This document shows positions 3,181 through 56,438 of a DNA stretch of 64,000 nt, in pieces. Source of the stretch: Spirochaetota bacterium (lineage in GTDB: Bacteria > Spirochaetota > UBA4802 > UBA5550). The stretch's first letter is position 1, and every line of letters starts with the position of its first letter. The translations under genes were made by a program, and so were the position numbers. The notes under the pieces were generated by a model. That model searched no databases. It saw nothing but the letters and a program-made list of their open reading frames with translations, and was not told the DNA's origin. The stretch covers positions 64,488 to 128,487 of the forward strand of contig JAGNKX010000007.1 in assembly GCA_017999915.1 (NCBI GenBank), read 5' to 3'.

Positions 3181-4425
3181 TCAGCCTATTAATACTTCTT
3201 GCGGCAGGGCGTGGCTCAGAAAGCCTGTTGGAGAGGCGGATAATCCGTAAGCGCCGGCATTGAAGAGCACCAGCAAATCCCCCTCTTCTAGTTTCGGCAT
3301 TTTAACATTGCGCCCGATGCAATCCAGCGGGGTACAGAGGGGGCCGCAAATTTCGTAGCTGATTTCTTCTGGCATGGAAATCTTATTGGCGCAGGCAAAG
3401 GGAAAGTTTCTTTTAATGATCTGCCCCAGGTTGCCGCTTGCAGCCAGGTTGTGGTTCATTCCCCCGTCGCAGATGGCGAAATGTTTGCCGCGGCTCTGCT
3501 TAACGGCCACAATGGATGTTATATACATGCCAGATTCAGCCGTGAGAAATCTTCCCGGCTCGAGGATGATTTTCAGGTTCGAAAAAGCTTTTTCCCGGTC
3601 GATTAACTTCTGGCGCTCCCGCTTCAATGCCTGCCCCAGGTCGGCCAGGTCCAGCGGTTTCTCGTCTTCATAATAGGGGATGCCGAAACCACCGCCAAGA
3701 TCGAGGGTCGATAAAAGCAGCCCGTGATTTATTAAAATACTCTCGCACAGTTCCAGCGCATGGGCATAAAGTTTTGCCAGTGAAACTGAATCAAGAATCT
3801 GTGTGCCTGCGTAAATATGAAGCCCGGACAATTTCAGGTTGGCGCACTTCATGATAGCCTGTACGGCTTCGTTCAGCATCTCTTCGTCAAAACCAAAGGC
3901 GATCGGCTTGCCTCCCATCTGGATGGCGCCGGTTTGAAATTGATTGGACGGATTGATCCGAATGGAAACCGGTTGGTTCCTGTTTAGTTGTTTTGCCGCC
4001 TCGTTGCAGCGCGTAATTTCAGAAAAAGATTCGAGATGGATTTCCGCTATGCCTTTTTCTATCGTGGTGCGGAGGTCAATTGTCCTTTTACCGGGACCGG
4101 CGTATATGATCTTGGCGGGATCGCAGCCTGCCGCGATTGATTTTTCGAATTCACCCGGTGATGCGATCTCCGTCCCGCAGCCATTATTTACAAAAAAGGC
4201 GATGACATCATTGTGCGGGTTTGCTTTAACCGAATAAAATATATCGCAGAAAGGAAGATTCGTCCTTATCGTATCTAGTTTCTGCTTCAATACTCCCGCA
4301 TCATAGAGGTATAAAGGGGTCGAGCGTTTATTAGCTAGGTCGATAATTGATTCCCCGCCTGCAAACAGCGTGTTGTCCCTGACCTCGAAATAGGAGTCAA
4401 TAATGCTTTGCCCGACTTTGTTCAT
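3181..4425 (-). CDS. PLP-dependent decarboxylase, Orn/DAP/Arg decarboxylase (fold type III) family
   Basis: Motifs YSVKANPH (PLP lysine), GGGFGIPY, EPGRFL, CGPLCTPLD. The ATG overlaps the stop of the upstream ligase (ATGA at 4422-4425). Confidence 0.85.
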   Translation of the reverse strand: MNKVGQSIIDSYFEVRDNTLFAGGESIIDLANKRSTPLYLYDAGVLKQKLDTIRTNLPFCDIFYSVKANPHNDVIAFFVNNGCGTEIASPGEFEKSIAAGCDPAKIIYAGPGKRTIDLRTTIEKGIAEIHLESFSEITRCNEAAKQLNRNQPVSIRINPSNQFQTGAIQMGGKPIAFGFDEEMLNEAVQAIMKCANLKLSGLHIYAGTQILDSVSLAKLYAHALELCESILINHGLLLSTLDLGGGFGIPYYEDEKPLDLADLGQALKRERQKLIDREKAFSNLKIILEPGRFLTAESGMYITSIVAVKQSRGKHFAICDGGMNHNLAASGNLGQIIKRNFPFACANKISMPEEISYEICGPLCTPLDCIGRNVKMPKLEEGDLLVLFNAGAYGLSASPTGFLSHALPQEVLIG

Positions 4426-5960
4426 TGCTGATTTCTCGCCTTTAAAGCCGGATAGTCAATTTTACCGGACGCGGTTTTAGGAAGTTGGTCGACGAATTCA
4501 TACATTTTGGGGATCATGTAATAGGGCATATTTTTGGCGTTATATTCAATTAATAATTTTTGGGCCTCATCATTTTTGCCTGGTTCGAGCGGAACCAGGT
4601 ATAACTTTATTAAATGTCCCGCGTTGGGATCGCTGATCCCGATTGCTGCGACTTCTTTGATGAACCCGCTGGAAAAAACGATCTCCTCGATTTCCGAGGG
4701 GCTCATCCTGAATCCCAGTGATTTGATCATGTTATCTTTTCTGCCGACGATATACAGGAACCCGTCATTGTCCCTGTAGGCGATGTCGCCGGAGAAAACG
4801 GCCATTTCACTGCTTATCTGCCCGGCCCCGCCTCTGGGGCAATTATACTGCTTGAACCTGATATTATTTTCCTCTTCCCTGTTCCAGTATCCGAGTGAAA
4901 CGGTCGGTCCGCGGTGCACAAGTTCGCCGTGTTCCAGGGGATCGCACATTGAGCCGTCTTCCCGCACCACGAAGAGTTCATTATTTGGTATTGCCTTGCC
5001 GATGGAAGTCATGTGGCTGTCAAAGTCTTTGAACTCCAGGTAGGAGGAACGGAAGGCCTCCGTAAGGCCGTACATGAGTATTATTTCAGTATTGGGTATA
5101 AGTTCTCTCAGCTTTTGCAGGACATACGTGGGCACGGCTCCGCCGGAATTGGTGATATACCTCAAACGGGGAAGGGAGGTTTTCCCGATCGAAGAGCGTA
5201 TCAGGAGCGCCCAAATTGGGGGGATCCCGGCGAGACCGGTAATGTCATATTTTGCCAGAGCGGCGACAATTTCATTCGGCAGTCTGAATGAAAAAAAGCA
5301 ATATGTGCCGCCGGTCATGATCATGGTTACCAGTTGATTTAATCCATAATCAAAAGACAGGGGCAAAATTCCCAGCAGGACATCCTTCTCCGTTAAAGAT
5401 AAATACTGGGATACGATACGGCCACCTACCACGAGGTTTTTATGGGAAATCATGACCCCTTTTGGCCTGCCTGACGAACCGGATGTATAGAGAATGGCTG
5501 CGCAGTCGTTCTCTATCACCGGTATGTTTCTGGGGAAAACGGTCGTTGCGTCGCCAATTGTATCGAGAATGAGTATATGCTTGAGATGAGGACAATCCGG
5601 GATGATATCTTTGAGTCCATCTTTCCTGTCTCTTGATGTCAGCAGCACTGTTACCTCGACGTCGGCCAGTATATGCTGGACCTGGGCGGGTTTCAGGAGA
5701 GCGTGTATCGGGATAAAAGTAGCTCCCGTGGCGCAAATTCCCAGTATGGAAACCGCCTGCCTGTGGTCGTGGTCAAAATAAAACGCGACCCTGTCTAACG
5801 GTTTAACGCCTATTTTAAGCAATTCATCATAAACAAATGACGCTTTATGGGCCAGCTCGTCGAATGAAAGTGACCCTGAATTGTCATGTATGGCTGTCTT
5901 GGCTGGATATTTGGATAAGGATGACAAAAAACAATGATGGAGAATGTAATCGTAGATCAT
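4422..5960 (-). CDS. adenylate-forming (AMP-dependent) synthetase/ligase, probably loads the adjacent carrier protein
   Basis: AMP-binding signature ILYTSGSSGRPKGV, YGLTE, a GD..YRD.DGFLYIVGR block and a C-terminal PKT.SGKI lysine. It starts 12 nt downstream of the ACP gene. Confidence 0.85.
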   Translation of the reverse strand: MIYDYILHHCFLSSLSKYPAKTAIHDNSGSLSFDELAHKASFVYDELLKIGVKPLDRVAFYFDHDHRQAVSILGICATGATFIPIHALLKPAQVQHILADVEVTVLLTSRDRKDGLKDIIPDCPHLKHILILDTIGDATTVFPRNIPVIENDCAAILYTSGSSGRPKGVMISHKNLVVGGRIVSQYLSLTEKDVLLGILPLSFDYGLNQLVTMIMTGGTYCFFSFRLPNEIVAALAKYDITGLAGIPPIWALLIRSSIGKTSLPRLRYITNSGGAVPTYVLQKLRELIPNTEIILMYGLTEAFRSSYLEFKDFDSHMTSIGKAIPNNELFVVREDGSMCDPLEHGELVHRGPTVSLGYWNREEENNIRFKQYNCPRGGAGQISSEMAVFSGDIAYRDNDGFLYIVGRKDNMIKSLGFRMSPSEIEEIVFSSGFIKEVAAIGISDPNAGHLIKLYLVPLEPGKNDEAQKLLIEYNAKNMPYYMIPKMYEFVDQLPKTASGKIDYPALKARNQQ

Positions 5961-5972
5961 AGAAACCCGTCA

Positions 5973-6227
5973 TCAAGCCTTTATTTTGGAATTAATAAAA
6001 CTAGTAATGGATTTTATCGAATTGAAATTACTTTCATCAACCTCTTCATCCTTGATGATAACGCCGAATTCTTCTTCAAGAAACTGAATAATGGTGAGGA
6101 TGCCCAGCGAGTCTATAATCTTGTCTTTCAAAAGACTCGATTCTTCATTAATGTTATAGGCTTTGGCATTGGGGAAATTTTCCAAAATAAAATTTAAAAT
6201 ATTTTTTTGGATGGCCTTCGATTCCAT
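5973..6227 (-). CDS. acyl/peptidyl carrier protein (DltC-like)
   Basis: 84 aa, acidic, with the phosphopantetheine-site motif IIDSLGILTIIQFLEEEFG. Confidence 0.75.
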   Translation of the reverse strand: MESKAIQKNILNFILENFPNAKAYNINEESSLLKDKIIDSLGILTIIQFLEEEFGVIIKDEEVDESNFNSIKSITSFINSKIKA

Positions 6228-6435: not shown

Positions 6436-7113
6436 CTATACAATTGTATCAGACCCGTCAAATGGCTTTTGAAACTCCTTAATATTTTTTGACAATTCGC
6501 GAATGGATTTATCCCACCAGGATGATTCCTTGATTTTCTTTATGGTGTCCGGGTCAAATCTGTAACGCAATATCCGGGCCGGAAAACCGGAAACTACTGC
6601 AAAATCCGGCACGTCCTGGGACACGACCGAGTTTGCGCCGATCACGGCGCCGTCGCCGATCCTGGAAACGGACGGCATTATTACGGCGTTGTGCCCGATC
6701 CAAACATCGTTCCCGATGGTAAGCTGTGTCCTCGCAAGTATGTCTTCTTTTACTAATCCGAACCAGGGATTGAAAAAGAACGCGTGAGTGGAGAGCAGGT
6801 TCATCGGATGATTTGCGTTAAAGACTTTTATTGAATTGGCAAAGGAGCAGTATCTTCCGATTTTTGTTGCGGGAGGCGTGTGTGTAAAATTAAATAAAAC
6901 AAAGCACCCGCCTTCCGAATACATGCCAATATCCAGATGGAAGTAATTATTAAAAATTTTCCTCAATGTAATGGTGTATAATTCGCCCTTTTCCAGTTTC
7001 AATATGAGCGACATTAATATTTTCCTGATTCTTAATGATTTAATAATTCCAAATGCAGGATATAAAAGATATTTTGCCAGGAAATGCTCGCATCCTTCTT
7101 TTTCCGTTTTCAT
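6436..7113 (-). CDS. hexapeptide-repeat (LbH) O-acetyltransferase, xenobiotic/CatB-Vat-like
   Basis: IGNDVWIGHNAVIMPSVSRIGDGAVIGANSVVSQDVPDFAVVSGFPARILRYRF. Confidence 0.75.
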   Translation of the reverse strand: MKTEKEGCEHFLAKYLLYPAFGIIKSLRIRKILMSLILKLEKGELYTITLRKIFNNYFHLDIGMYSEGGCFVLFNFTHTPPATKIGRYCSFANSIKVFNANHPMNLLSTHAFFFNPWFGLVKEDILARTQLTIGNDVWIGHNAVIMPSVSRIGDGAVIGANSVVSQDVPDFAVVSGFPARILRYRFDPDTIKKIKESSWWDKSIRELSKNIKEFQKPFDGSDTIV

Positions 7114-12626: not shown

Positions 12627-13316
12627 TTAGTTTATCCCGGCGATTTTAAACGCCATAATATCGCTGTTATCGTAATTTTGCATTATAATTCTCCCCGGAT
12701 TGCCGGATACGAGGCTTCTTTCCGGAATGTCTTTTGAAACCACTGAATTTGCGGATATGGTACTGCCGTCGCCTATGGTAATTTTACCTGTTAAGACCGC
12801 ACCCGGGCCGATCCAGACGTTATTTCCAATAACGGGCGTCTCAAAATCCTGGTATCCCAGGCCCACCCCGATTATGACATTATTCGATACACTGCAATTT
12901 TCACCCACGGTAGTTGGTCCGACCAATATATTGGTGGAATGCCCCAGGTGAAAACCGGGCCCTATCTGGGCGTTCCTGTGTATCATCACATGGTGAATCA
13001 AACGCATCTGCAGGTCAAAGAACAGGTAAATCAATACCGGGAACAGGCCTATTAGTTTGCTCTTTTTGTATATTCGAAGCGCCCATTGGCCGAAACGGTA
13101 GACCGCGATACAATGCAATTCAAAATGCCATATTAAAGTTGTTATTTTCTGAGCAAGAGAGGGATGGGGCGTTTTCCAGGCAATTGTGTATATTTTTTCT
13201 TTATCAATTTTAAAATTGCTTATTTTTTTTGTCATATATGCCTTCTGGTGCGAAGAAAATCGATATGTAGATAAAAATTTACATATCAATAGATACATTG
13301 TTTTTAAAAGTGTCAA
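12627..13316 (-). CDS. serine-O-acetyltransferase-like hexapeptide acyltransferase (EPS acetyltransferase type)
   Basis: IHRNAQIGPGFHLGHSTNILVG...IGNNVWIGPGAVLTGKITIGDGSTISANSVVSKDIPERSLVSGNPGRII. The start is uncertain; an internal ATG (MTKKIS) is also possible. Confidence 0.7.
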   Translation of the reverse strand: MTLLKTMYLLICKFLSTYRFSSHQKAYMTKKISNFKIDKEKIYTIAWKTPHPSLAQKITTLIWHFELHCIAVYRFGQWALRIYKKSKLIGLFPVLIYLFFDLQMRLIHHVMIHRNAQIGPGFHLGHSTNILVGPTTVGENCSVSNNVIIGVGLGYQDFETPVIGNNVWIGPGAVLTGKITIGDGSTISANSVVSKDIPERSLVSGNPGRIIMQNYDNSDIMAFKIAGIN

Positions 13317-13743: not shown

Positions 13744-15690
13744 TCAATTGCCGTCCCATCCCGCTATTCTGGCCAGCATCCACCACATGGCCTTGGCCAA
13801 ACGTTTTGCCCCATTTGTTCCGAAATGATAATCAATGGTATCCGTTCCCTCATTGTCGGGATGGATAAACGGATGCGTATGGCCGTTCCAGGTCACAGTA
13901 TTCAATGAGCCCGCGTCATTATACGTCAATATATCGGCAAAATCAAACAGGACGGCGCCTTCTATACTTGCCACCTTTTCTCTTATGTATTGGTGTTTGA
14001 TATAATTCTGGTATCCCGATTCTCCCTCGCAGGGCGATGAATCTATTGGCCCGGTAGTAAAGAAGACTATTGTTCCTGAATTAACCTGCATCAGGGATTG
14101 AATAACGGCGATGTAGGTGTCCATGCATATCGCTGAATCTCCTGAATCAAGTCCCCACCAGACTCCGGGCGTTGTTCCCAACTCACCGTCGGTTGCTCCG
14201 AACCAGTGCACGCCGTATACAGCATCCACCGATGGACTGTAATAGGTGTTGAACGCCATATCCCAGCACCATCCGAAGCCTATCGCTGAAATCGGATTAC
14301 TTTGCGTATTGAGCTGGTATAAAATACTCTGCCGTATCATATTTGAGGCGGTGGAGATATTTGTCGAGCCGCTCCAGAAGTCATGCTCGGAGCAATTTCC
14401 CTTGTATTTTCCGCCTTCGTAATCGGCATTGTAGTAGTAATTTGAAGCCCTGAGGTAGGTAGTAACCGACGGGCCCATCCCTGCTCCGGCGGGCGAATCG
14501 CTGATAAGGCAGTTATACCGGCTGTTCTCCTGGGCCAGGAGCTGTAATCCCCTGGTATATGACCGCGAGTGCGATTCTCCCGGAATGATAAGCAGCATTT
14601 TTTTTACCAGGGCGATGTATTGATCAGGGATGCTGGTGTACCGGGAGACTATCGTATGGTCCGCGATTATTGCCGTGCCGGTTGGATTGCTTGCCAGGGT
14701 CGTGGCCGTGGCTTCGCCGTAACCGGTGGAATCACCGATACCGTTATGTGCCCAGACGCGATAATAATACTGGGTTGAGGCAGATAAACTGTTGCTATCG
14801 CTATACGCGGTCGTATTGGCGGCAACGGACGCAATATTAACGAAATCTACGTTGTTCGCGCTTCGCTGGATTATAAAGCTTGTCTCATTCGTTGAATTGT
14901 CGGCCCAGCCCAGGTTGATGCTATAACTTGACATCGCCGTCGCGGTTAATCCGCTCGGCGACGCCGGTACGACATTGCCTGTGGTTGCAGAGGATGTGTT
15001 TGAATATCCTGAATTTCCCGAGCCATTGTACGCCCTTACGCGATAATAATACGTTGTATTGGGAGCAAGTCCTGTATTATTATAAGATGTCGCGTTTGCC
15101 GAAGCAGTGGTTATTTGTCCATAATTGCTGTTGTCTGTGCTTCGCTCAATGCTGAAGCCGGTTTCATTGTCGGAGTTGTCATTCCATGATAGATTGATCT
15201 GACTGCTTGAAACGGATGTGGCCTGCAAGATGCTTGGGGAGTATGGAGTAAGAGGTTCAGTTGTGTAGGTAGTCGCGCTTGCATTATTAGAATAAGCCGA
15301 ATTTCCTGCATTGTTATAGGCACGTATCCGGTAATAGTAGGTGGTGCCGGGATTTAATCCAGTCGTGTCATTATACGACGACGCGCTCCCCTTTATTGCT
15401 CCGGCAATCTCGTTGAAATTAGAGTTAGTACCGGCGCTCCTGTCGATTCTGAAGCCCGTGACGTTATTGTAATCGTTCTCCCATACAAGATCGATTTTAT
15501 CGGTGCCTATGGTGGTTGCCTGCAGGTTGGCCGGAGCGTTTGGCGTTATGGCGCTGTTATTTCTAACCAACAGGTTTAAGCCTGCCAGCGTAGACACGTT
15601 AAAACCTGAGCCGGCTGTAAAATCAACATTTCCGCACGCGATGAGGAAAATTTGAACTGTCAGGAGTAAGAGGTTGTATTTGTTTTTCAT
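13744..15690 (-). CDS. lipoprotein: three tandem FN3 modules plus a ~310-aa C-terminal hydrolase-like domain
   Basis: Lipobox LIAC. Three modules each end YYYR[IV][RW]A[YH]N. The C-terminal domain contains IPGESHS, GFGWCWD and IDYHFG blocks. Confidence 0.6.
   Translation of the reverse strand: MKNKYNLLLLTVQIFLIACGNVDFTAGSGFNVSTLAGLNLLVRNNSAITPNAPANLQATTIGTDKIDLVWENDYNNVTGFRIDRSAGTNSNFNEIAGAIKGSASSYNDTTGLNPGTTYYYRIRAYNNAGNSAYSNNASATTYTTEPLTPYSPSILQATSVSSSQINLSWNDNSDNETGFSIERSTDNSNYGQITTASANATSYNNTGLAPNTTYYYRVRAYNGSGNSGYSNTSSATTGNVVPASPSGLTATAMSSYSINLGWADNSTNETSFIIQRSANNVDFVNIASVAANTTAYSDSNSLSASTQYYYRVWAHNGIGDSTGYGEATATTLASNPTGTAIIADHTIVSRYTSIPDQYIALVKKMLLIIPGESHSRSYTRGLQLLAQENSRYNCLISDSPAGAGMGPSVTTYLRASNYYYNADYEGGKYKGNCSEHDFWSGSTNISTASNMIRQSILYQLNTQSNPISAIGFGWCWDMAFNTYYSPSVDAVYGVHWFGATDGELGTTPGVWWGLDSGDSAICMDTYIAVIQSLMQVNSGTIVFFTTGPIDSSPCEGESGYQNYIKHQYIREKVASIEGAVLFDFADILTYNDAGSLNTVTWNGHTHPFIHPDNEGTDTIDYHFGTNGAKRLAKAMWWMLARIAGWDGN
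14698..15543 (-). repeat. three tandem FN3-coding modules; the middle one is highly similar at DNA level to the FN3 module of the gene at 10846..12315
   Basis: Aligned by eye: 15068-15210 versus 11991-12130 share long identical runs, for example cctgtattattataagatgtcg and gaagccggtttcattgtcggagtt. Confidence 0.7.
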
Positions 15691-16167: not shown

Positions 16168-18108
16168 ATGTGCGGCATAGCCGGAATATACAGTGTAAAA
16201 ACAAATCGCCCCGTTGATCAATCCCTGCTGATCAAGATGGCAGACTCCATGAATCACCGGGGTCCCGATGAAAATGGATTTCACGTCAAGGGGAGCGTCG
16301 GCCTGGCCCATACACGCCTCAGCATTATTGACCTGAGCGGCGGGTCGCAGCCCATCTACAATGAAGACCGGAGTCTCTGCGTTATCTTCAACGGGGAAAT
16401 ATATAATTATGTAGAATTGCGGGCTGTGCTGGAAAAAAAAGGTCATGTCTTTTATACCCACAGCGACACTGAAGTTATTGTGCACATGTACGAGGAGTAC
16501 GGTAAGGAGTGCTTCAATCAGTTCAATGGCCAGTTCGCCATAGCCCTCTGGAATGAAAAGAAAAGGGAGCTTCTCCTTGTGCGGGACCGTGTGGGTGTGC
16601 GGCCATTATATTACTCCATACTTCCCGACGGGACCCTGGTGTTTGCCTCGGAAATGAAGACGATATTCTGCTTTCCCGGCTTTGACCCTGAAATAGATCC
16701 GGAAGGCATCAACCAGATATTTACCCTGTGGGTTAATATCCCTCCGCGGACCATTTTTAAAAATGTCAACGAGCTTGCTCCGGGCCGCTGCATGGTTGTC
16801 TCCCAGCATGGGATCACGGTGCATGCCTTCTGGCGCATGCAATTCCCCGATGAGCGCGATTATGAAGACAGGCCCCTCTCATATTATACGGAACGAACAC
16901 GGGAGCTTCTCTATGATGCGGTGTCCCTGCGACTCAGGGCCGATGTTCCCGTTGCCGCCTATTTAAGCGGGGGCCTCGATTCATCGATCATCACGTCCCT
17001 GGTGAAAAAGCATCATATCAATGACCTGGTCACCTTTTCTGTGGCCTTCGGCGACAGGAATTTCGACGAGCGGCGCTATCAGAATGAAATGGTCGACCTG
17101 TTAAAGACCGACCATCGAGTTATTGAGGCGAACTACGACACCATCGGCGAAGCCTTTTCCGACGTGGTCTGGTTCTCTGAAAAGCCTATGATACGCACCG
17201 CCCCGGCGCCGTTGTTCCTCCTGTCCGGGTTGGTCAGGAGCAACGGCATCAAGGTTGTGCTGACGGGGGAGGGGGCCGATGAGTTCTTCGGCGGTTATGA
17301 TATTTTCAAAGAGGACAAGATCCGGCGCTTCTGGGCGAGGGACCCCGGATCGAAGTTGCGGCCCAGGCTTTTTTCCGCTCTTTATCCATTCATCTCCAGG
17401 GACCCGCGCTTTGAACGGTTCTGGCAGATGTTCTTCAAGAAGGATTTGACCGATACCGGGAACAACTATTATTCGCAGCTGGTACGGTGGCACAACACCT
17501 CGCAGATCAAGCGCTTATTTACCAATGAATACCAGGAGCGCTTCACCGAGGAGAGTATCTATCATGACCTCGATGATTATATCGATCCGGATATAAAAAG
17601 ATGGCACCCCCTCTGCCGGGCACAGTACCTGGAGGCCACGCTCTTCATGTCCGGCTACCTGTTGTCGTCCCAGGGAGACCGGATGATGATGGGTAACTCT
17701 ATCGAGGGAAGGTTTCCTTTCCTTGACCACAATGTGATAGAGTTTGCCGCCACAATTCCTCCTGTGTATAAGATCTATGGATTGAACGAAAAGTTTGCCC
17801 TGAAAAAATCCTTCGAAGACTCGCTGCCCGATTCGGTCCTCCACCGGGTGAAGCAGCCATACCGGGCGCCTATCAGCCAGTGTTTCGCCGGGGACAATTT
17901 CGCGGCTTCGATGCTCAACGGGGACCTTGTTCGAAAATACGGATATTTCGACCCGGACAGCGTTGAGCTTCTCCTTAATAAGTTCAGTACCCAGAGGTGG
18001 AAGAACATCAGCGAGCGCGATGACATGACCATGGTGGGCCTGATTTCCATGCAGCTGCTGCACCACCATTTCATCGATAAGGGGATGGATGATCATCAAC
18101 CGGCTTAA
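16168..18108 (+). CDS. asparagine synthase (glutamine-hydrolysing) family amidotransferase
   Basis: N-terminal MCGIAG nucleophile, SGGLDSS PP-loop, and a length of 646 aa typical for AsnB-type enzymes in EPS loci. Confidence 0.9.
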   Translation: MCGIAGIYSVKTNRPVDQSLLIKMADSMNHRGPDENGFHVKGSVGLAHTRLSIIDLSGGSQPIYNEDRSLCVIFNGEIYNYVELRAVLEKKGHVFYTHSDTEVIVHMYEEYGKECFNQFNGQFAIALWNEKKRELLLVRDRVGVRPLYYSILPDGTLVFASEMKTIFCFPGFDPEIDPEGINQIFTLWVNIPPRTIFKNVNELAPGRCMVVSQHGITVHAFWRMQFPDERDYEDRPLSYYTERTRELLYDAVSLRLRADVPVAAYLSGGLDSSIITSLVKKHHINDLVTFSVAFGDRNFDERRYQNEMVDLLKTDHRVIEANYDTIGEAFSDVVWFSEKPMIRTAPAPLFLLSGLVRSNGIKVVLTGEGADEFFGGYDIFKEDKIRRFWARDPGSKLRPRLFSALYPFISRDPRFERFWQMFFKKDLTDTGNNYYSQLVRWHNTSQIKRLFTNEYQERFTEESIYHDLDDYIDPDIKRWHPLCRAQYLEATLFMSGYLLSSQGDRMMMGNSIEGRFPFLDHNVIEFAATIPPVYKIYGLNEKFALKKSFEDSLPDSVLHRVKQPYRAPISQCFAGDNFAASMLNGDLVRKYGYFDPDSVELLLNKFSTQRWKNISERDDMTMVGLISMQLLHHHFIDKGMDDHQPA

Positions 18109-18239
18109 AATTGACTTGACGGGATACTGGGAAGCAATAGTATATTTACAATAATCAGCCCATCCGCATGGTTTTCTAGATATAATGCTGGCACAAATAA
18201 CCCGGTAAGGGCACAATTTTATTATTTGCGAGAAATAGC

Positions 18240-18503
18240 ATGCAAAGCACCCAGGAACTGATCACGAATTATATTAAGGAAAATTTTATCACGGGGAGGA
18301 GCTCAAAGGTAGAATTGACTCCGGATATATCGCTCCTGGAAAGCGGCATAATGGACTCCACAGGCATCCTCGAGCTGGTGTTGTTCCTTGAAGAACAGTT
18401 CTCCATCAAAATAGACGATGAGGAAATCGTTCCGGAGAACCTTGATTCGGTGAGCAATATCATTCTCTTCTTAAAGAAAAAACAACCGGTCATTCAAAAG
18501 TAA
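18240..18503 (+). CDS. acyl/peptidyl carrier protein
   Basis: 87 aa with the motif GIMDSTGILELVLFLEEQF (Ser attachment site). Confidence 0.7.
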   Translation: MQSTQELITNYIKENFITGRSSKVELTPDISLLESGIMDSTGILELVLFLEEQFSIKIDDEEIVPENLDSVSNIILFLKKKQPVIQK

Positions 18504-18554
18504 AGCCTCATCAATAATTATTGAATGATCGTTTTGCCCGCTTGACGCGCCCCG

Positions 18555-19403
18555 TTACATCCTCGCCAGGGTTGCAAGAAATTTATCCGCCACTAGGATC
18601 CTGCCGGTTTCACTTAAATGGCCCCCATCATGGGTGTACTCGGGAACAAGGGAAAAATGGTCTTTCCCGGCGTTATGGGAGATGCGGCGCGTACCGTCGG
18701 GATTGGTCGATTCGTAAAGTTCAATATCAAGAATAGATTTTGGACCATATTTTTTCCTGAGAAGGGAATTGAATTCATTTCTTTTAATATTGACCAGGGA
18801 ATTGTCCGCCCTGCCGAGGATTTTTTTGATGATATGCTTCAGGTAGTATTTGACATTAATGAACTCTCCTTCAGCCGTCAAGGGCGCGGTGACATGGATG
18901 AACGTGGTCCCCGGGTACTTTTTTATCAGGCCGTCCATTGATGACGAGTAATATGCGAACAGATCGTTTATATCGGTATTTTCATCGAAATCAACATAGC
19001 AAAACTTGAAAAACGCTATGTCGGTTTTTTTCGCGACGCCGGACCCCATTGTTTTCACAAAGGCGTCCACCTTTGTCTTCGGCTTGCAGTTTTCCCCGTT
19101 TATGGAATGGGCGAATATGCCCGCATTGAATTTTTCTGGATCGATTGTCTCCTGCAGGTTTAACGTGACGGCGGGGTTGCTTTTCATAAGATTTTGAATG
19201 CCGCCGATAATATCATAACCTACCGATTGGTGGCCGAAATATACCTTTTTAGCCGACAGTTTTTTCCATTCAGCCGCGGAAACGGTCTTGGTATGCAGCT
19301 GCTGCACTGATGCTTCCATGGTTTTTCCTCCGCATGCGGATATAAGTATCAATATCGCAGTAACGCATATGGTGGAATATAAAAATGACTTAACACTGGT
19401 CAT
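18555..19403 (-). CDS. lipoprotein of unknown function, possibly SGNH/esterase-like
   Basis: Signal peptide plus lipobox (ISAC). Blocks YFGHQSVG, FKFCYVDF and THDGGHLSETG (DxxH-like) parallel the C-terminal domain of 13744..15690. Confidence 0.5.
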   Translation of the reverse strand: MTSVKSFLYSTICVTAILILISACGGKTMEASVQQLHTKTVSAAEWKKLSAKKVYFGHQSVGYDIIGGIQNLMKSNPAVTLNLQETIDPEKFNAGIFAHSINGENCKPKTKVDAFVKTMGSGVAKKTDIAFFKFCYVDFDENTDINDLFAYYSSSMDGLIKKYPGTTFIHVTAPLTAEGEFINVKYYLKHIIKKILGRADNSLVNIKRNEFNSLLRKKYGPKSILDIELYESTNPDGTRRISHNAGKDHFSLVPEYTHDGGHLSETGRILVADKFLATLARM

Positions 19404-19713
19404 ATGGTTCCCCTATGCAAGAAGTGAATTTATTTGATTATTGATTTGTATCGATACTTGTCAATACTTTTTGCAGCGGCAGCTGCCCCGTATGCAGGCC
19501 GTAGTTAAACGGCCGGTCCCGGGCCGTTATCCAATAATCTTCATTAATGCCAAAAAAGATTGACAAAACTCTCGCGGGCTCTTTATTAAGAGCGACATTC
19601 ATCACATTCCATAAGGTAAAGTCGTGCTCTGAGGTTACGCCAGGGGAACGCCAATCGTCGTCAGCCCCGCTGCGCCGAAGGGTACTGTATATTTTTATTG
19701 GACGGTTAATCCT

Positions 19714-20709
19714 ATGAAATTCTGCTCGCGCTGTGTCCTGCCGGAAACGTTCCCCGGCATTCAATTCGATGAAAAAAGCGTTTGCAACTATTGCCTGAAC
19801 GCCAATCTCCCCGATGAGGAAAAGAAAGAAGAATACACAAAGAAGTTTGAAGACCTCCTCGACAGCGTCAGGGGGAAGCAGGACTATGACGTGATAATGG
19901 CCTACAGCGGCGGTAAGGATTCCACCTACACGTTATACATGCTGGCCATAAAGTATAAAATGAGGATTCTTGCCCTGTCCTTCGACAACGGCTTCATCTC
20001 GCCGCGCGCGATGGAGAATATTGCCCACATGACGGACATCTGTGGCGCCACCAGCATGGTGGTGCGGCCATCCTTCGAGATCATGAAGAAGGTCTTTGCC
20101 GTGGCGGCGAAAGAGGACTTCTACAGCCCCAAGACCCTGGACCGCGCCAGCTCCATCTGCACCACCTGCATCGGCCATGTGAAGTCGCTGGTGCTGAAGA
20201 CAGCGCTCCAGATGGACATACCACTGGCGGCCTATGGATGGTCCCCCGGGCAGGCGCCCATAACCTCCGCCATCATGCAGACAAGCCCCCGCATGCAGGC
20301 CATGACCAACAAGACCGTTCGGGACCTGCTCTTCAGGCGCTTTCCCGAAGAGATCAGGCAGTACTTCATCTCAGACGAGGACCTGAAATACCCGGCGGAA
20401 CGCTGGCCCATCAATATCCATCCCCTGGCTTTCATGAAGTATAATGAAAATGATATTCTCAAGCTGATCCAGTCCCTGGGCTGGGTCATGCCGCAGGATA
20501 CGGATCCCAACTCGTCGAACTGCACCCTCAACGCCCTGGCGAACCATATCCACCGGGAGAAGTTCGGTTTTCACCCCTATGCCTGGGAGATCGCCGGCAT
20601 TGTCCGTTCCGGCTCCATGGACCGGGAGGAGGGGATCGAAAAGACCAATAAGCCCGAGGATATGAAAATGGTAAGGTACGGCGCTGATAAGATCGGCATA
20701 AAAATATAA
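19714..20709 (+). CDS. N-acetyl-sugar amidotransferase (PP-loop ATP pyrophosphatase, WbpG/WbuX-like)
   Basis: N-terminal Zn-ribbon CSRC...CNYC followed by the PP-loop AYSGGKDST. The length of about 330 aa is typical. Confidence 0.75.
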   Translation: MKFCSRCVLPETFPGIQFDEKSVCNYCLNANLPDEEKKEEYTKKFEDLLDSVRGKQDYDVIMAYSGGKDSTYTLYMLAIKYKMRILALSFDNGFISPRAMENIAHMTDICGATSMVVRPSFEIMKKVFAVAAKEDFYSPKTLDRASSICTTCIGHVKSLVLKTALQMDIPLAAYGWSPGQAPITSAIMQTSPRMQAMTNKTVRDLLFRRFPEEIRQYFISDEDLKYPAERWPINIHPLAFMKYNENDILKLIQSLGWVMPQDTDPNSSNCTLNALANHIHREKFGFHPYAWEIAGIVRSGSMDREEGIEKTNKPEDMKMVRYGADKIGIKI

Positions 20710-20726
20710 AAGTTAGAAAGCAGCAT

Positions 20727-22280
20727 ATGACCGCATCTCCGACCCTGATACATCATTTCCTAGAGTCCAGCGCCGGCCGTTTCCCCGACAAGACGGCCCT
20801 CATCCATGAACAGGTCCGCGCCACCTACGCGGAGATCAACATGAAAGCCAACAGGCTTGCCCGCGCCCTTGTCTCCATGGGTGTGGGGCAGGGCAACCGT
20901 GTCGCGGTCATACTCCATAACAGCCTCGAATATGTGGTGGCCTATTACGGCGTTCTCAAGACAGGCGCCGCCTTTGTGTCCCTTGGCACGGACACCAGGG
21001 CCGAAAAGCTGGCTGCCCTCCTTAACGAGATCGAGCCTGCCGCGGTCATATCTTCGACGAGGTTCGAACAGCTGCTGGAGGAAGTCCCGATCTCCGCGAT
21101 TCCCCTTAAGGCCCTGCTGCTTTCGCAGCCGAAGATGCCCTGGGGCGGCGCTCCCTTTCCTGTAATTAGCCTTGAAGACGTTTTCGCCGGCGGTGACGGT
21201 TCCAATCCGGGCCTTGCTCTCGATCCGTCGAGCCTGGCCTGTCTCATCTATACATCGGGTTCCACCGGGGTGCCCAAGGGCGCCATGCTCACGCACTTCA
21301 ATATCGTCAATAACACGAATTCAATCTGCACTTATCTGCATTTAACTTCAGAGGATCGCCAGATGGCGGTGCTCCCGTTTTTTTACGTTATGGGGAAGTC
21401 CCTTCTCAATACCCACGTCGCAGTGGGCGGATCGATTGTGATCAACAACAAGTTTGCTTACACCGGCGCGGTGGTGAAGCAGATGATCGACGAGAAGGTG
21501 ACCGGTTTCTCCGGCGTGCCCTCGACCTATGCCTACCTCCTGCACCGGTCGCCACTGGCGGCGTCCAGGGATAAGCTTGCCACGCTTCGGTACTGCTCCC
21601 AGGCGGGAGGGCACATGGCGAAGCAGATCAAGCAGGATCTAAGAAAGGCCCTACCGGAGCATACGGATATCTTCATCATGTACGGCGCCACCGAGGCGTC
21701 GGCGCGCCTGAGCTACCTCGAGCCCTCCGAGTTCGATTCGAAGATCGATTCCATCGGCAAGGCGATCCCCGGCGTCACCCTCCGGGTCCTTGACGAGGCC
21801 GGGAATGAGGTGGCCCCGGGCCAGACGGGGGAGCTCACCGCGTCGGGCCCCAATATCATGCAGGGCTACTGGAAGGACCCTGAGACCACGGCGAAGGTGC
21901 TGGACGGGAACGGCTACCACACCGGAGATCTCGCCTCCATGGACGGGGACGGATACTTTTACCTGGTGGGCCGCAAGGACAATCTTCTCAAGGTGAGCGG
22001 ACACCGGATCAATCCCCAGGAGATAGAAGACGTTATGATGGGAAGCGGCCTCCTGGTCGAGGCGGCCGTTATCGGAAAGCCGGACGATCTCAAGGGCAAC
22101 AAGCTCATGGCCCTGGCGGTACCTATCGATAGCGCCTGCACGGCGGACCGGGTCATGGAATACTGTTCGTCGAAGCTCCCGAAATTCAAGCTTCCCGATG
22201 AGATCAAATTCACCCGGGCCCTGCCGAAGAAGGCGAGCGGTAAGATCGACCGGGGCAGGTGCGGGGAGATGCTGGATTGA
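20727..22280 (+). CDS. adenylate-forming (AMP-dependent) synthetase/ligase, second copy
   Basis: LIYTSGSTGVPKGAM, YGATE, GD...DGDGYFYLVGRKD, LPKKASGKI. Confidence 0.85.
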   Translation: MTASPTLIHHFLESSAGRFPDKTALIHEQVRATYAEINMKANRLARALVSMGVGQGNRVAVILHNSLEYVVAYYGVLKTGAAFVSLGTDTRAEKLAALLNEIEPAAVISSTRFEQLLEEVPISAIPLKALLLSQPKMPWGGAPFPVISLEDVFAGGDGSNPGLALDPSSLACLIYTSGSTGVPKGAMLTHFNIVNNTNSICTYLHLTSEDRQMAVLPFFYVMGKSLLNTHVAVGGSIVINNKFAYTGAVVKQMIDEKVTGFSGVPSTYAYLLHRSPLAASRDKLATLRYCSQAGGHMAKQIKQDLRKALPEHTDIFIMYGATEASARLSYLEPSEFDSKIDSIGKAIPGVTLRVLDEAGNEVAPGQTGELTASGPNIMQGYWKDPETTAKVLDGNGYHTGDLASMDGDGYFYLVGRKDNLLKVSGHRINPQEIEDVMMGSGLLVEAAVIGKPDDLKGNKLMALAVPIDSACTADRVMEYCSSKLPKFKLPDEIKFTRALPKKASGKIDRGRCGEMLD

Positions 22281-56355: not shown

Positions 56356-56438
56356 TATTGGTATCTCCATTTTATCAGTTGTATAGAATTTATTTTTTAC
56401 ACGATAAACACGCCCCAGGTCTTGTCCCGGCATCAGCC

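What the first reader, a model, noticed from the sequence alone, without database searches (positions are those of the whole stretch)
16168..22280. Second carrier-protein tailoring module: AsnB-type amidotransferase + ACP + PP-loop sugar amidotransferase + second AMP-ligase
Plus-strand genes encode a glutamine-dependent AsnB-family enzyme (MCGIAG, SGGLDSS), an 87-aa ACP (MDSTG), a WbpG/WbuX-like PP-loop amidotransferase with an N-terminal CxxC..CxxC ribbon, and a second adenylating ligase (YTSGSTGVPKGA). A minus-strand lipoprotein interrupts them. Two independent ACP-ligase pairs plus two different ATP-dependent amidotransferases in one glycan locus is unusual. It implies amide- or amidine-linked substituents, for example aminoacyl amides of uronic acids or acetamidino sugars, assembled on carrier proteins. 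The PP-loop and ligase genes are visibly more GC-rich, with antisense shadow ORFs, than their neighbours, which suggests mosaic origin.
Basis: partly seen in the sequence, partly recalled or inferred. Interest (0 to 1): 0.65.

Follow-up and report, generated by a model that had tools for sequence, protein, structure and literature searches.

The report
Carrier-protein cassette with seven-cysteine PP-loop enzyme
Four genes in a surface-sugar locus of an uncultured anaerobic spirochaete form a widely conserved but uncharacterised cassette that probably builds an unusual nitrogen- or sulfur-containing acyl group on a small carrier protein, using an enzyme closer to a known thioamide-making enzyme than to the sugar amidotransferase it was first taken for.

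Summary
Window 16168-22280 encodes an AsnB-type amidotransferase, an 87-aa ACP, a minus-strand lipoprotein, a PP-loop enzyme and an AMP-ligase.

The genes are strongly co-conserved. In 49 related loci with enough flank, the PP-loop gene has an ACP beside it in 48 and a ligase in 42. An AsnB (17) or a NadE-like PP-loop amidating enzyme (20) is present in 35. In syntenic spirochaete loci the NadE-like gene sits exactly in the AsnB slot. The same quartet recurs in Nitrospiraceae, in an unnamed metagenome contig with Wzz, CapD and glycosyltransferase genes, and in a Bacillus thuringiensis plasmid PKS-like cluster.

The PP-loop protein is not a canonical WbuX/NASAT. It scores below the curated cut-off and has three extra invariant cysteines that canonical NASATs lack. 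Their spacing matches the [4Fe-4S] ligands of CtaC, the carrier-protein-dependent thioamide synthetase. Relatives are fused to ligases or inserted inside NRPS adenylation domains.

The best reading is thiotemplated tailoring. An acid is loaded on the ACP, amidated, and its amide carbonyl is then converted to a thioamide or an amidine. The product probably decorates a glycan. The chemistry and the acceptor are unproven. The "lipoprotein" is an SGNH-fold enzyme and part of the spirochaete version of the cassette.

The parts
16168..18108 (+). AsnB-type glutamine-dependent amidotransferase, 646 aa. It has the Cys2 nucleophile (MCGIAG) and the synthetase PP-loop SGGLDSS. It is the cassette-linked AsnB subtype.
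   Evidence: TIGR01536 scores 501 against a cut-off of 267, and TIGR03108 scores 459 against a cut-off of 817 (not met); it lies adjacent to the ACP/PP-loop block in 17 of 49 loci; a NadE-like gene replaces it in syntenic loci L012, L014, L015 and L017; 37% identical to the B. thuringiensis cluster AsnB, against 30% to AsnBs of sugar loci.
18240..18503 (+). Acyl carrier protein ACP2, 87 aa. The phosphopantetheine attachment site is Ser40 in GIMDSTG.
   Evidence: PP-binding 21.2 bits. D-S-T is invariant in 71 of 71 orthologues; an ACP is present in 48 of 49 loci; 38% identical to ACP1; 54% identical to the B. thuringiensis plasmid ACP.
18555..19403 (-). SGNH/GDSL-fold lipoprotein, 282 aa. It has a lipobox Cys24 and a candidate triad of Ser60 (FGHQSVG), Asp259 and His262 (DGGHL). 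It is probably an extracytoplasmic carbohydrate esterase or O-acyltransferase.
   Evidence: homologues are named SGNH/GDSL hydrolase and some carry PF00657. S60, D259 and H262 are invariant; the model has pLDDT 82, and the top Foldseek hits are all SGNH enzymes, including sialate O-acetylesterase and the OafB periplasmic domain 6se1; co-conserved in 9 of 49 loci, among them five of the six spirochaete loci closest to the window (L012-L015, L017; not L016).
19714..20709 (+). Seven-cysteine PP-loop (AANH) enzyme, 331 aa. It has a Zn ribbon (C4, C7, C24, C27), the PP-loop S65-GGKDS70, and three extra invariant Cys (C149, C152, C270) that are a candidate [4Fe-4S] site.
   Evidence: alignment A1; pLDDT 90.5, best fold match 8wex NASAT at TM 0.70-0.74, then NcsA/TtuA/LarE at 0.35-0.41. 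TIGR03573 scores 162 against a cut-off of 203; the Cys signature is kept in 119 of 123 relatives that cover all three positions; the Agrobacterium NASAT and the Solidesulfovibrio GATase-NASAT fusion lack the extra Cys, and LpNASAT has Asp at the third position. CtaC has D77/S78 and C154/C157/C284.
20727..22280 (+). AMP-forming ligase 2 (ANL family), 517 aa. The A3 motif is YTSGSTGVPKGA and the A10 Lys lies in SGKIDR. The A4 region is PFFYVMG, with no amino-binding Asp. It is the presumed loader of ACP2.
   Evidence: TIGR03098 scores 379 against a cut-off of 592; a ligase is present in 42 of 49 loci; fusion protein P0250 is a ligase plus PP-loop, and its ligase part is 35% identical; 31% identical to ligase 1.
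3181..6227 (-). Context: the first module. ACP1 is at 5973-6227, ligase 1 at 4422-5960 (amino-acid-type A4 motif SFDYG) and a LysA-family PLP decarboxylase at 3181-4425.
   Evidence: TIGR03098 scores 538 against 592, and TIGR03099 scores 403 against 478. Both are near-members of the exosortase-A-associated pair.
12627..13316 (-). Context: a left-handed beta-helix (hexapeptide) acyltransferase. It is a candidate for transferring an acyl group onto the glycan. A second one lies at 6436-7113 next to ACP1.
   Evidence: weak homologues lie near the cassette in L012, L013 and L017.
13744..15690 (-). Context: an fn3-repeat protein (648 aa) that travels with the cassette in some lineages. A paralogue lies at 10846-12315.
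   Evidence: fn3 domains; related proteins flank the cassette in L007, L012-L015, L017, L021 and L024.

Best explanation
The plus-strand genes are one conserved thiotemplated tailoring cassette centred on ACP2.

Inferred order of events:
1. Ligase 2 adenylates a carboxylic acid that is not an alpha-amino acid, possibly a di-acid, and loads it as a thioester on holo-ACP2.
2. The AsnB enzyme converts a carboxyl group of the tethered or incoming unit into a carboxamide. In close relatives an NH3-type NadE-like enzyme takes this place. This step might instead form an amide bond.
3. The seven-Cys PP-loop enzyme binds the acyl-ACP, adenylates an amide carbonyl oxygen and replaces it.
4. The finished acyl group is handed to a cell-envelope glycan built by the surrounding glycosyltransferases, probably by one of the hexapeptide acyltransferases. 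The periplasmic SGNH lipoprotein edits or relocates the ester outside the cytoplasm.

For step 3, the three extra Cys, with CtaC/TtuA-like spacing, point to sulfide delivered by a [4Fe-4S] cluster. That would give a thioamide (my estimate about 0.4). Ammonia giving an amidine, as in NASAT, is the main alternative (about 0.25). Nitrile or thioacid formation is also possible.

Shown here: the gene content, the motifs, the fold, the linkage across phyla, and the fusions.

Inferred: the order of steps, the substrate, the heteroatom introduced, the Fe-S cluster, and the glycan as acceptor.
For: Linkage:
- In 49 loci with at least 4.5 kb on both sides, an ACP is present in 48 and a ligase in 42. AsnB is in 17 and a NadE-like gene in 20, with one or the other in 35.
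- Gene orders differ between lineages: ACP-Lig-PP, ACP-PP-Lig, PP-ACP-AsnB-Lig and ACP-PP-Lig-AsnB. The linkage is therefore selected rather than inherited synteny.
- Syntenic spirochaete loci carry either AsnB (L013 and the window) or a NadE-like gene (L012, L014, L015, L017) in the same slot.
- All four components have orthologues in a B. thuringiensis plasmid type II PKS/FAS-like cluster that includes a PPTase.

Fusions:
- Relatives of the PP-loop protein are fused to ligases (P0250, P0306).
- Others are inserted between motifs A8 and A9 of NRPS adenylation domains, just upstream of the PCP. From memory, this is where methyltransferase domains that act on carrier-bound substrates sit.

The PP-loop enzyme:
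- The Zn ribbon, the PP-loop and the three extra Cys are kept in 119 of 123 relatives that cover all three positions, down to about 27% identity.
- The Agrobacterium NASAT and the Solidesulfovibrio GATase-NASAT fusion lack the extra Cys, and LpNASAT has Asp at the third position.
- CtaC has a Zn site, a PP-loop (D77/S78) and [4Fe-4S] ligands C154/C157/C284, and it works only on PCP-bound substrate (PMC6772006). The window protein has D69/S70 and C149/C152/C270.
- CtaC fragments score above shuffles against the family profile (p 0.0002, 0.002, 0.02).

Glycan context:
- The window holds GT2 genes, a WecG-type glycosyltransferase, a deacetylase and hexapeptide acyltransferases.
- L096 holds Wzz, CapD and GT2 genes.
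- A TIGR03006 XrtA-type deacetylase lies near the cassette in 20 of 49 loci.

Other:
- The ACP serine is invariant.
- The host is an anaerobe-type MAG from digesters and sediment, which fits an oxygen-labile cluster.
Against: - No biochemical data exist for any member of the family.
- The best structural match is the amidine-forming NASAT, not a sulfurtransferase. The best family model is WbuX.
- The CtaC sequence could not be retrieved, so homology to CtaC rests on motif spacing and short primer-derived fragments only.
- No sulfur-mobilising gene and no glutaminase partner is conserved next to the cassette.
- 14 of 49 loci have neither AsnB nor a NadE-like gene nearby, and 7 of 49 have no ligase.
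- The NadE-like protein passes the NAD+ synthase subfamily cut-off, so it could be a housekeeping enzyme.
- In Desulfomonilia the cassette sits beside ribosomal and tRNA genes and ArnT-like genes rather than in an obvious glycan locus. In B. thuringiensis it sits in a PKS-like cluster. The acceptor therefore need not be a polysaccharide.
- No transferase linking ACP2 to the glycan is identified, and no MBOAT-type exporter was found.
- AsnB homologues also sit next to canonical NASATs in sugar loci.
Confidence: 0.55

Rival explanations
1. The PP-loop protein is a WbuX/WbpG/PseA-type N-acetyl sugar amidotransferase that turns an N-acetyl group of a nucleotide or lipid-linked sugar into an acetamidino group. 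AsnB supplies ammonia or makes a uronamide. The ACP-ligase pair is an independent acylation module that happens to lie nearby.
For: TIGR03573 is the best family hit at 162 bits. The fold is closest to LpNASAT at TM 0.70-0.74. The Zn tetracysteine motif and the PP-loop defined for NASAT are present. AsnB lies beside a canonical NASAT in an Agrobacterium sugar locus. A class II GATase-NASAT fusion exists in Solidesulfovibrio. The window locus is a glycan locus.
Against: The score is below the curated cut-off, whereas a canonical NASAT passes at 229. The Agrobacterium NASAT and the Solidesulfovibrio GATase-NASAT fusion lack the three extra invariant Cys, and LpNASAT has Asp at the third position. 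ACP adjacency in 48 of 49 loci, the ligase fusions and the insertion into NRPS A domains are hard to explain for an enzyme that acts on sugars. The quartet occurs in a B. thuringiensis PKS-like cluster with no sugar genes. No HisH/HisF-type partner was seen among the scanned genes of the locus.
Confidence: 0.12
2. The same thiotemplated cassette, but the PP-loop enzyme introduces nitrogen rather than sulfur. It would give an ACP-bound amidine (amide plus NH3, NASAT-type chemistry) or a nitrile (QueC-type dehydration of the AsnB-made carboxamide). On this view the three extra Cys bind a structural metal.
For: The closest fold and family is the amidine-forming NASAT. An amidating enzyme (AsnB or NadE-like) accompanies the cassette in 35 of 49 loci. 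This fits a two-step route from carboxylate to amide to amidine or nitrile, as in QueC (established knowledge). PGAP names relatives "7-cyano-7-deazaguanine synthase". Some hosts of relatives are aerobes: Bacillus, Streptomyces, Ralstonia and Roseovarius.
Against: From memory, every characterised PP-loop enzyme with a three-Cys cluster site inserts sulfur: TtcA, TtuA, NcsA, Fe-S LarE and CtaC. PMC6772006 says so for the TtcA/TtuA/Ncs6 family and for CtaC. Three conserved ligands rather than four suggest an open-site [4Fe-4S] cluster rather than structural Zn. The QueC Pfam score is only 14 bits.
Confidence: 0.25
3. The cassette is not glycan-directed in this genome. It makes a small diffusible or lipid-linked metabolite, for example a thioamide- or amidine-bearing acyl compound or a lipid head-group modification. 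It sits in the glycan locus only because such loci collect accessory genes.
For: The cassette lies beside housekeeping and ArnT-like genes in Desulfomonilia, alone next to CapD in L008, and in a PKS/FAS-like cluster with an ABC exporter in B. thuringiensis. Its GC3 of 0.77 matches the core genome, not the glycan genes. The PP-loop protein is 60-90% identical across phyla, which suggests one fixed small substrate.
Against: Glycan genes flank the cassette repeatedly. These include Wzz, CapD and GT2 genes in L096 and a hexapeptide acyltransferase, a GT2 and sulfation genes in L099. An XrtA-type polysaccharide deacetylase is nearby in 20 of 49 loci. In spirochaetes the cassette travels with an SGNH carbohydrate-esterase-like lipoprotein and fn3 surface proteins.
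Confidence: 0.2

Closest known systems
CtaC, the thiotemplated thioamide synthetase of closthioamide biosynthesis (Ruminiclostridium cellulolyticum; PMC6772006)
   Same: Both are AANH/PP-loop enzymes with an N-terminal Zn site. Both have three Cys in a CxxC...C arrangement with nearly the same spacing (CtaC D77/S78, C154/C157, C284; here D69/S70, C149/C152, C270). Both are encoded next to stand-alone carrier proteins and adenylate-forming enzymes, mostly in anaerobes. CtaC acts only on carrier-bound substrate.
   Different: The window enzyme sits in a glycan locus rather than a peptide antibiotic cluster. It travels with AsnB or a NadE-like enzyme and an SGNH lipoprotein. None of the other closthioamide-pathway enzyme types named in PMC6772006 (ATP-grasp CtaD, peptidyl transferase CtaG, transglutaminase CtaJ) turned up among the 41 window ORFs scanned. 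Its product is unknown.
N-acetyl sugar amidotransferases (WbuX, WbpG, PseA, AglX; TIGR03573; LpNASAT structure 8wex, PMC10607449)
   Same: The overall fold matches (TM 0.70-0.74). The PP-loop SGGxDS and the Zn tetracysteine motif CxxC...[GN]xCxxC are shared. Both occur in glycan loci.
   Different: The window protein scores below the family cut-off. It has three additional invariant Cys. It is obligately linked to an ACP and a ligase rather than to HisH/HisF-type ammonia donors and sugar-nucleotide genes. Its relatives are embedded in NRPS modules.
Carrier-protein-dependent envelope acylation systems: DltABCD (D-alanylation of teichoic acids), AlmEFG (glycine on Vibrio lipid A) and the V. cholerae O1 RfbK/RfbL tetronate genes (from memory)
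   Same: Each has a stand-alone ANL ligase that loads a small acid on a dedicated carrier protein for transfer to an envelope glycan or lipid. The Dlt system also has an extracytoplasmic SGNH-like component (DltD).
   Different: None of these has a PP-loop or AsnB tailoring step on the carrier. No MBOAT (DltB-like) or AlmG-like transferase was found here. Ligase 2 is not of the amino-acid type.
Exosortase-A (XrtA/PEP-CTERM) EPS locus genes: TIGR03098 ligase, TIGR03099 decarboxylase, TIGR03108 AsnB and TIGR03006 deacetylase
   Same: For ligases 1 and 2 and the decarboxylase, these models are the best-scoring NCBIfam families. For AsnB, TIGR03108 ranks second after the generic TIGR01536. A true TIGR03006 deacetylase flanks the cassette in 20 of 49 loci.
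   Different: All window proteins score below those cut-offs. No exosortase or PEP-CTERM gene was seen in the window. As far as I know, the TIGR descriptions do not include a PP-loop partner.
OxyD-type AsnB homologues that make a malonamyl starter unit on a thiotemplate (oxytetracycline; from memory)
   Same: An AsnB-family enzyme amidates a carboxyl of a unit that is used as a thioester. This fits the B. thuringiensis cluster, where KS, CLF, FabZ and FabG genes follow the cassette.
   Different: No ketosynthase lies in the window locus. OxyD systems have no PP-loop partner.

Membership tests
N-acetyl sugar amidotransferase (TIGR03573, WbuX/NASAT) | Whole-protein score above the curated cut-off (203.2 bits) | tested here: not met
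   The window protein scores 162.1 bits. A canonical Agrobacterium NASAT scores 228.6, and the B. thuringiensis relative scores 114.8.
N-acetyl sugar amidotransferase (TIGR03573, WbuX/NASAT) | PP-loop SGGxDS and Zn tetracysteine motif CxxC...[GN]xCxxC (PMC10607449) | tested here: met
   S65-GGKDS70 is present. C4, C7, C24 and C27 are invariant, with a consensus of GVCNYC.
N-acetyl sugar amidotransferase (TIGR03573, WbuX/NASAT) | Basin-shaped NASAT fold | tested here: met
   The model has pLDDT 90.5. 8wex is the best PDB match, at E 5e-14 and TMq 0.70-0.74.
N-acetyl sugar amidotransferase (TIGR03573, WbuX/NASAT) | Works with HisH/HisF-type partners or sugar-nucleotide genes and acts on N-acetyl sugars | tested here: not met
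   No such partner was found among the scanned genes of the locus. The conserved neighbours are an ACP, a ligase, and AsnB or a NadE-like gene. The activity itself cannot be tested with these tools.
CtaC-type thiotemplated Fe-S AANH thioamide synthetase | Zn site, PP-loop and three Cys (CxxC...C) with CtaC spacing | tested here: met
   The window has D69/S70, C149/C152 and C270. CtaC has D77/S78, C154/C157 and C284. The Cys are kept in 119 of 123 relatives that cover all three positions.
CtaC-type thiotemplated Fe-S AANH thioamide synthetase | Sequence homology to CtaC itself | tested here: inconclusive
   The CtaC sequence could not be fetched. Three fragments rebuilt from mutagenesis primers score above shuffles against the family profile (p 0.0002, 0.002, 0.02). 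None of the 150 nearest cluster representatives carries CtaC-like local motifs.
CtaC-type thiotemplated Fe-S AANH thioamide synthetase | Association with and dependence on a carrier protein | tested here: met
   This is genomic association only. An ACP is present in 48 of 49 loci. Ligase fusions and insertions between NRPS motifs A8 and A9 exist. Biochemical dependence cannot be tested here.
CtaC-type thiotemplated Fe-S AANH thioamide synthetase | Binds a [4Fe-4S] cluster and exchanges O for S | not testable with these tools
   This needs anaerobic purification, Fe and S quantification, and an activity assay.
Asparagine synthase B family (TIGR01536) | N-terminal Cys nucleophile, synthetase PP-loop, and score above the cut-off | tested here: met
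   The motifs MCGIAG and SGGLDSS are present. The score is 501.4 against a cut-off of 267.1.
XrtA/PEP-CTERM amidotransferase (TIGR03108) | Score above the cut-off of 816.9 | tested here: not met
   The score is 459.4 bits.
Acyl carrier protein (PF00550) | Four-helix carrier domain with a conserved Ser in a DSx motif | tested here: met
   The score is 21.2 against a gathering score of 20.8. D-S-T is invariant in 71 of 71 orthologues. The protein is a paralogue of ACP1.
Exosortase-A-associated acyl-CoA ligase (TIGR03098) | Score above 592.35 and a neighbouring TIGR03099 decarboxylase | tested here: not met
   Ligase 2 scores 379.3 and has no adjacent decarboxylase. Ligase 1 scores 538.1 and does have an adjacent decarboxylase, which scores 403 against a cut-off of 478.
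SGNH/GDSL hydrolase superfamily (the lipoprotein) | SGNH fold with a Ser nucleophile and an Asp-x-x-His block | tested here: met
   The top Foldseek hits are all SGNH enzymes. S60, D259 and H262 are invariant. The window protein itself has no Pfam hit, but some homologues carry PF00657.
Dlt-like envelope acylation system | Ligase, carrier protein, MBOAT (DltB) and an SGNH-like DltD | tested here: not met
   A ligase, an ACP and an SGNH protein are present. No MBOAT or acyltransferase_3 family protein was found among the scanned ORFs of the window. The resemblance is in logic only.

The most novel reading that the evidence does not exclude
Surface glycans or glycolipids of many anaerobic Spirochaetota, Desulfobacterota and Nitrospirota carry an acyl substituent that contains a thioamide. 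It would be made on a dedicated ACP by a [4Fe-4S] PP-loop enzyme after AsnB- or NadE-type amidation. This would be the first thioamide in a polysaccharide context. The same enzyme domain, inserted between motifs A8 and A9 of NRPS adenylation domains, would define a new class of interrupted adenylation domain that thionates, or amidinates, carrier-bound peptides.
Probability: 0.3. Interest if true: 0.85.

Novelty: new variant of a known kind. Interest (0 to 1): 0.66.

Why it matters
PP-loop enzymes that act on carrier-protein-bound substrates are known from a single characterised case, CtaC. Thioamides and amidines are rare in natural products, and I know of none made on a carrier protein for a bacterial surface glycan.

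The cassette found here is widespread. There are 545 relatives among GTDB species genomes and more than 3,000 protein clusters, almost all annotated as hypothetical, TilS or QueC. The PP-loop protein stays 48-90% identical to the window's across the 80 loci fetched, which span Spirochaetota, Desulfobacterota and a PVC-group MAG. The cassette also has embedded counterparts in NRPS and PKS megasynthases.

Working out its reaction would do four things:
- assign a function to a large family;
- predict a new chemical feature of the envelopes of anaerobes that dominate digesters and sediments;
- correct systematic mis-annotation as QueC, TilS or NASAT;
- give natural-product chemists a new on-line tailoring domain.

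The AsnB-for-NadE swap in syntenic loci is also a clean natural example of non-orthologous displacement. It constrains the chemistry to ATP-dependent amidation.

Tried and rejected
1. Retrieving the CtaC sequence failed. A protein search with fragments rebuilt from the published mutagenesis primers found nothing. My first reading of the PP-loop fragment was also probably off by one dropped G. Two degenerate DNA scans of the metagenome collection gave no hits or only chance hits.

2. A pseudo-CtaC sequence padded with X aligned only at the PP-loop and was uninformative. It was replaced by the anchored fragment test.

3. Looking up cluster names for ten distant representatives returned only "hypothetical protein" or TilS.

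4. I tested whether the C-terminal half of the fn3 protein is homologous to the SGNH lipoprotein. BLASTP and hhalign were not significant. The single-linkage cluster that merged the two proteins is therefore not trusted.

5. The best ACP2 family hit is the OlsHI ornithine-lipid ACP, but it scores only 51.7 bits against a cut-off of 130, and no GH3-like enzyme is present. This lead was rejected.

6. A Dlt-like export route was considered and not adopted because no MBOAT was found.

7. The promoter and terminator scan gave nothing beyond weak consensus matches.

8. I could not measure Cys-Cys distances in the model because the coordinates are not exposed.

9. Literature searches for PP-loop-interrupted adenylation domains, or for ACP-linked NASAT-like enzymes, found nothing.

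Full report
**1. What is there**

ORF listing and translation confirm the five genes at the stated coordinates.

- AsnB-type enzyme, 16168-18108 (+). It has the MCGIAG nucleophile and an SGGLDSS PP-loop. It passes the generic asparagine synthase model (TIGR01536, 501 bits against a cut-off of 267). It fails the XrtA-specific model (TIGR03108, 459 against 817).
- ACP2, 18240-18503 (+). It is a marginal Pfam PP-binding hit (21.2 bits against 20.8). It is a clear paralogue of a second ACP at 5973-6227 (38% identity).
- PP-loop protein, 19714-20709 (+). Its best hit is the WbuX model TIGR03573, at 162 bits against a cut-off of 203.
- Ligase 2, 20727-22280 (+). It is a complete ANL enzyme. Its best hit is the exosortase-A-associated ligase model, at 379 bits against a cut-off of 592.
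- Minus-strand ORF, 18555-19403. It has a signal peptide and a lipobox, and no family hit.

**2. Wider locus**

Upstream, on the minus strand, lies the first module. It consists of ACP1, ligase 1 (TIGR03098, 538 against 592) and a LysA-family PLP decarboxylase (TIGR03099, 403 against 478). Around it lie GT2 and WecG glycosyltransferases, a polysaccharide deacetylase, two hexapeptide acyltransferases, an FrhB-like protein and two fn3 paralogues.

A DUF5018 protein follows ligase 2. From about 28 kb onwards the window is housekeeping: GlgX, Sua5, ProRS, ETF and others. The cassette therefore sits at the right edge of a glycan locus.

The sequence occurs in wastewater, anaerobic-digester and sediment metagenomes. 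Its closest genomic relatives are Spirochaetota MAGs.

**3. Composition**

The PP-loop and ligase 2 genes have GC3 of 0.77, and AsnB has 0.67. The other glycan genes have 0.40-0.63, while core genes have 0.72-0.86. But the GC-rich pair looks native, and the glycan genes around it are the deviants. The pair is also syntenic in relatives at 84-90% identity.

**4. The PP-loop protein is a distinct, highly conserved family**

A protein search returned 3,298 relatives at E ≤ 1e-10. The 120 listed are 60-89% identical and, where a source gives an organism, come from Smithella, Spirochaetota and Deltaproteobacteria/Desulfomonilia MAGs. Where a source gives a name, it is "hypothetical" or "TilS".

An alignment of 16 sequences shows the NASAT features: the PP-loop and Cys4, Cys7, Cys24 and Cys27. 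It also shows three further invariant cysteines, C149, C152 and C270.

The AF2 model (pLDDT 90.5) matches the Legionella NASAT structure 8wex best, at TM 0.70-0.74. The Fe-S PP-loop sulfurtransferases NcsA, TtuA and LarE follow at TM 0.35-0.41.

The three extra Cys are kept in 119 of 123 relatives that cover all three positions, taken from a library clustered at 50% identity, down to about 27% identity. They are absent from canonical-type NASATs:
- LpNASAT has Asp at the C270 position.
- An Agrobacterium NASAT that passes TIGR03573 has no Cys in that region at all.
- A Solidesulfovibrio GATase-NASAT fusion also lacks them.

**5. Linkage**

A scan of GTDB species genomes found 545 relatives, and 80 loci were fetched. 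I searched their six-frame ORFs with the window proteins. Among 49 loci with at least 4.5 kb on both sides:
- an ACP is present in 48;
- an ANL ligase in 42;
- AsnB in 17;
- a NadE-like PF02540 protein in 20 (AsnB or NadE-like in 35);
- a TIGR03006 XrtA-type deacetylase in 20;
- the lipoprotein in 9;
- the fn3 protein in 7.

The 49 loci are not phylogenetically independent, but the gene order varies. It is ACP-ligase-PP in Desulfobacterota and ACP-PP-ligase in spirochaetes. It is PP-ACP-AsnB-ligase in a Nitrospiraceae contig. In a contig at 37% identity it is ACP-PP-ligase-AsnB, followed by Wzz, CapD, an epimerase and two GT2 genes.

The ACP motif D-S-T is invariant in all 71 orthologues.

In spirochaete loci otherwise syntenic with the window, the gene between the fn3 protein and ACP2 is either AsnB (L013, as in the window) or a NadE-like gene on the other strand (L012, L014, L015, L017). 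This looks like a non-orthologous displacement between two ATP-dependent carboxylate-amidating enzymes.

A B. thuringiensis HD1002 plasmid carries an ACP (54% identical to ACP2), the PP-loop protein (37%), a ligase (32%) and AsnB (37%). They lie inside a cluster with KS, CLF-like, FabZ, FabG, thioesterase, PPTase, radical SAM and ABC transporter genes.

**6. Fusions**

Among the nearest representatives are ligase-PP-loop fusion proteins (P0250, P0306). There are also NRPS or PKS-NRPS proteins with the PP-loop domain inserted between adenylation motifs A8 and A9, directly before the PCP. Examples are P0353, P0364, P0377, P0381, P0386 and P0387.

From memory, that is the classical insertion site of tailoring domains that act on carrier-bound substrates. 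I found no paper describing such an insert.

**7. Comparison with CtaC**

Dunbar et al. (PMC6772006) showed that CtaC is an AANH enzyme with Zn, ATP and [4Fe-4S] sites: D77/S78 and C154/C157/C284. They showed that it thioamidates only PCP-bound substrate. They also found that its homologues lie near thiotemplated enzymes in about 75% of cases, mostly in anaerobes.

The window protein has the same elements at D69/S70, C149/C152 and C270.

From memory, TtcA and TtuA have a much shorter gap of about 89 residues between the CxxC and the third Cys. CtaC has 127 and the window protein 118.

I could not obtain the CtaC sequence. Fragments rebuilt from the published primers fit the family profile better than shuffles. 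That is only weak support.

**8. The lipoprotein**

Its homologues are named SGNH/GDSL hydrolases, and some carry PF00657. Ser60, Asp259 and His262 are invariant.

The model (pLDDT 82) matches only SGNH enzymes. These include sialate O-acetylesterases, peptidoglycan O-acetylesterase and the periplasmic domain of the LPS O-acetyltransferase OafB.

It is co-conserved with the cassette in spirochaetes and in some Desulfobulbaceae.

**9. Mechanism**

The linkage, the fusions and the invariant ACP serine make it very likely that ligase 2 loads ACP2 and that the PP-loop enzyme works on the tethered group.

Ligase 2 has PFFYVMG where amino-acid-activating enzymes have FDxS. Ligase 1 has SFDYG. The substrate of ligase 2 is therefore probably not an alpha-amino acid. 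This is an inference from established knowledge of ANL motifs.

The alternation of AsnB and NadE-like genes argues for an ATP-dependent amidation step.

The PP-loop enzyme then most plausibly activates an amide carbonyl. The three-Cys site favours sulfur, giving a thioamide. The NASAT-like fold keeps an amidine in play, and a nitrile or a thioacid cannot be excluded.

Three things are inferred from context only: the transfer to the glycan, the transferase responsible, and the role of the SGNH protein. In some genomes the cassette is not in a glycan locus at all.

**10. Verdict**

This is a new variant of a known kind. It is a carrier-protein-dependent, CtaC/NASAT-like PP-loop tailoring cassette embedded in glycan loci. 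It is widespread and uncharacterised.

Noticed in passing
P0353, P0364, P0377, P0381, P0386, P0387, P0342 (proteins): Relatives of the PP-loop protein are inserted inside NRPS adenylation domains, between core motifs A8 and A9 and directly before the PCP. Others are fused to the C-terminus of stand-alone ligases (P0250, P0306). No paper describing a PP-loop-interrupted adenylation domain was found.
   Followed up: partly
window 3181-6227 (-): The first module consists of ACP1, ligase 1 (amino-acid-type A4 motif SFDYG) and a LysA-family PLP decarboxylase. Its proteins score just below the exosortase-A-associated TIGR03098/TIGR03099 cut-offs. The logic resembles VinN/VinL/VinO: load Asp or Glu on a carrier, then decarboxylate to a beta- or gamma-aminoacyl-ACP (from memory). 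A hexapeptide acyltransferase (6436-7113) lies next to ACP1.
   Followed up: partly
L012 7030-8013, L014 5313-6320, L015 7013-7978, L017 5945-6937, compared with window 16168-18108: In otherwise syntenic spirochaete loci the AsnB slot holds a NadE-like gene on the opposite strand. That gene passes the NF002048 NAD+ synthase subfamily cut-off (361 against 313). This looks like a non-orthologous displacement.
   Followed up: yes
L092 (B. thuringiensis HD1002 plasmid NZ_CP009349.1, record 319-332 kb): An apparently uncharacterised cluster carries an ACP, the PP-loop protein (annotated as 7-cyano-7-deazaguanine synthase), two adenylate-forming enzymes and two more carrier proteins. It also carries KS, TE, FabZ, KS-like, FabG, AsnB, PPTase, radical SAM and ABC transporter genes. 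It is a culturable host for testing the cassette.
   Followed up: partly
L095 7122-9086 (Solidesulfovibrio carbinolicus plasmid pDCAR1): A 654-aa protein fuses a class II (Ntn, MCGIFG) glutaminase domain to a NASAT-like PP-loop domain that lacks the three extra Cys. It is followed by two AsnB genes and glycosyltransferases. This suggests that some NASATs take ammonia from an AsnB-type glutaminase rather than from HisH/HisF.
   Followed up: no
window 18555-19403 (-); alignment A2: Met29, five residues after the lipobox Cys24, is invariant in all 15 aligned homologues. Some gene calls start there (the 254-aa form, P0121 and L004). The signal peptide and lipobox are nevertheless conserved in 13 of 15 sequences. 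Alternative starts, giving a cytoplasmic and an exported form, are possible.
   Followed up: no
window 10846-12315 (-) and 13744-15690 (-): These are two paralogous fn3-repeat proteins whose C-terminal halves have no family hit. Relatives flank the cassette in several phyla (L007, L012-L015, L017, L021, L024). The C-terminus ends in a motif reminiscent of SGNH block V, but homology to the lipoprotein was not significant.
   Followed up: partly
window 54724-57509 (-): A third AMP-binding ligase (581 aa) overlaps by 31 bases an NAD-dependent epimerase/reductase (NAD_binding_4, "male sterility" type). Two small ORFs and a 1,463-aa ORF (59200-63591) lie on the same strand. This may be another acyl-activation and reduction unit.
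   Followed up: no
window 25978-27690 (-): A 570-aa ORF has GC3 of 0.86, strong negative AT skew and no family hit apart from a faint TPR match. It lies between the glycan locus and GlgX. Long ORFs overlap it on the opposite strand.
   Followed up: no
L099 (contig carrying P0257): A 35%-identical relative has a small ACP-like ORF upstream. It sits beside a hexapeptide transferase, a GT2, a sulfotransferase and a fused ATP sulfurylase/APS kinase. That is a sulfur-activating neighbourhood, but for sulfation rather than for sulfide supply.
   Followed up: no
L097 (contig carrying P0313): A 32%-identical seven-Cys relative lies between two B12-radical SAM genes and a FeeM/N-acyl amino acid synthase-like gene, with no ACP nearby. 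The family is therefore not always carrier-linked.
   Followed up: no
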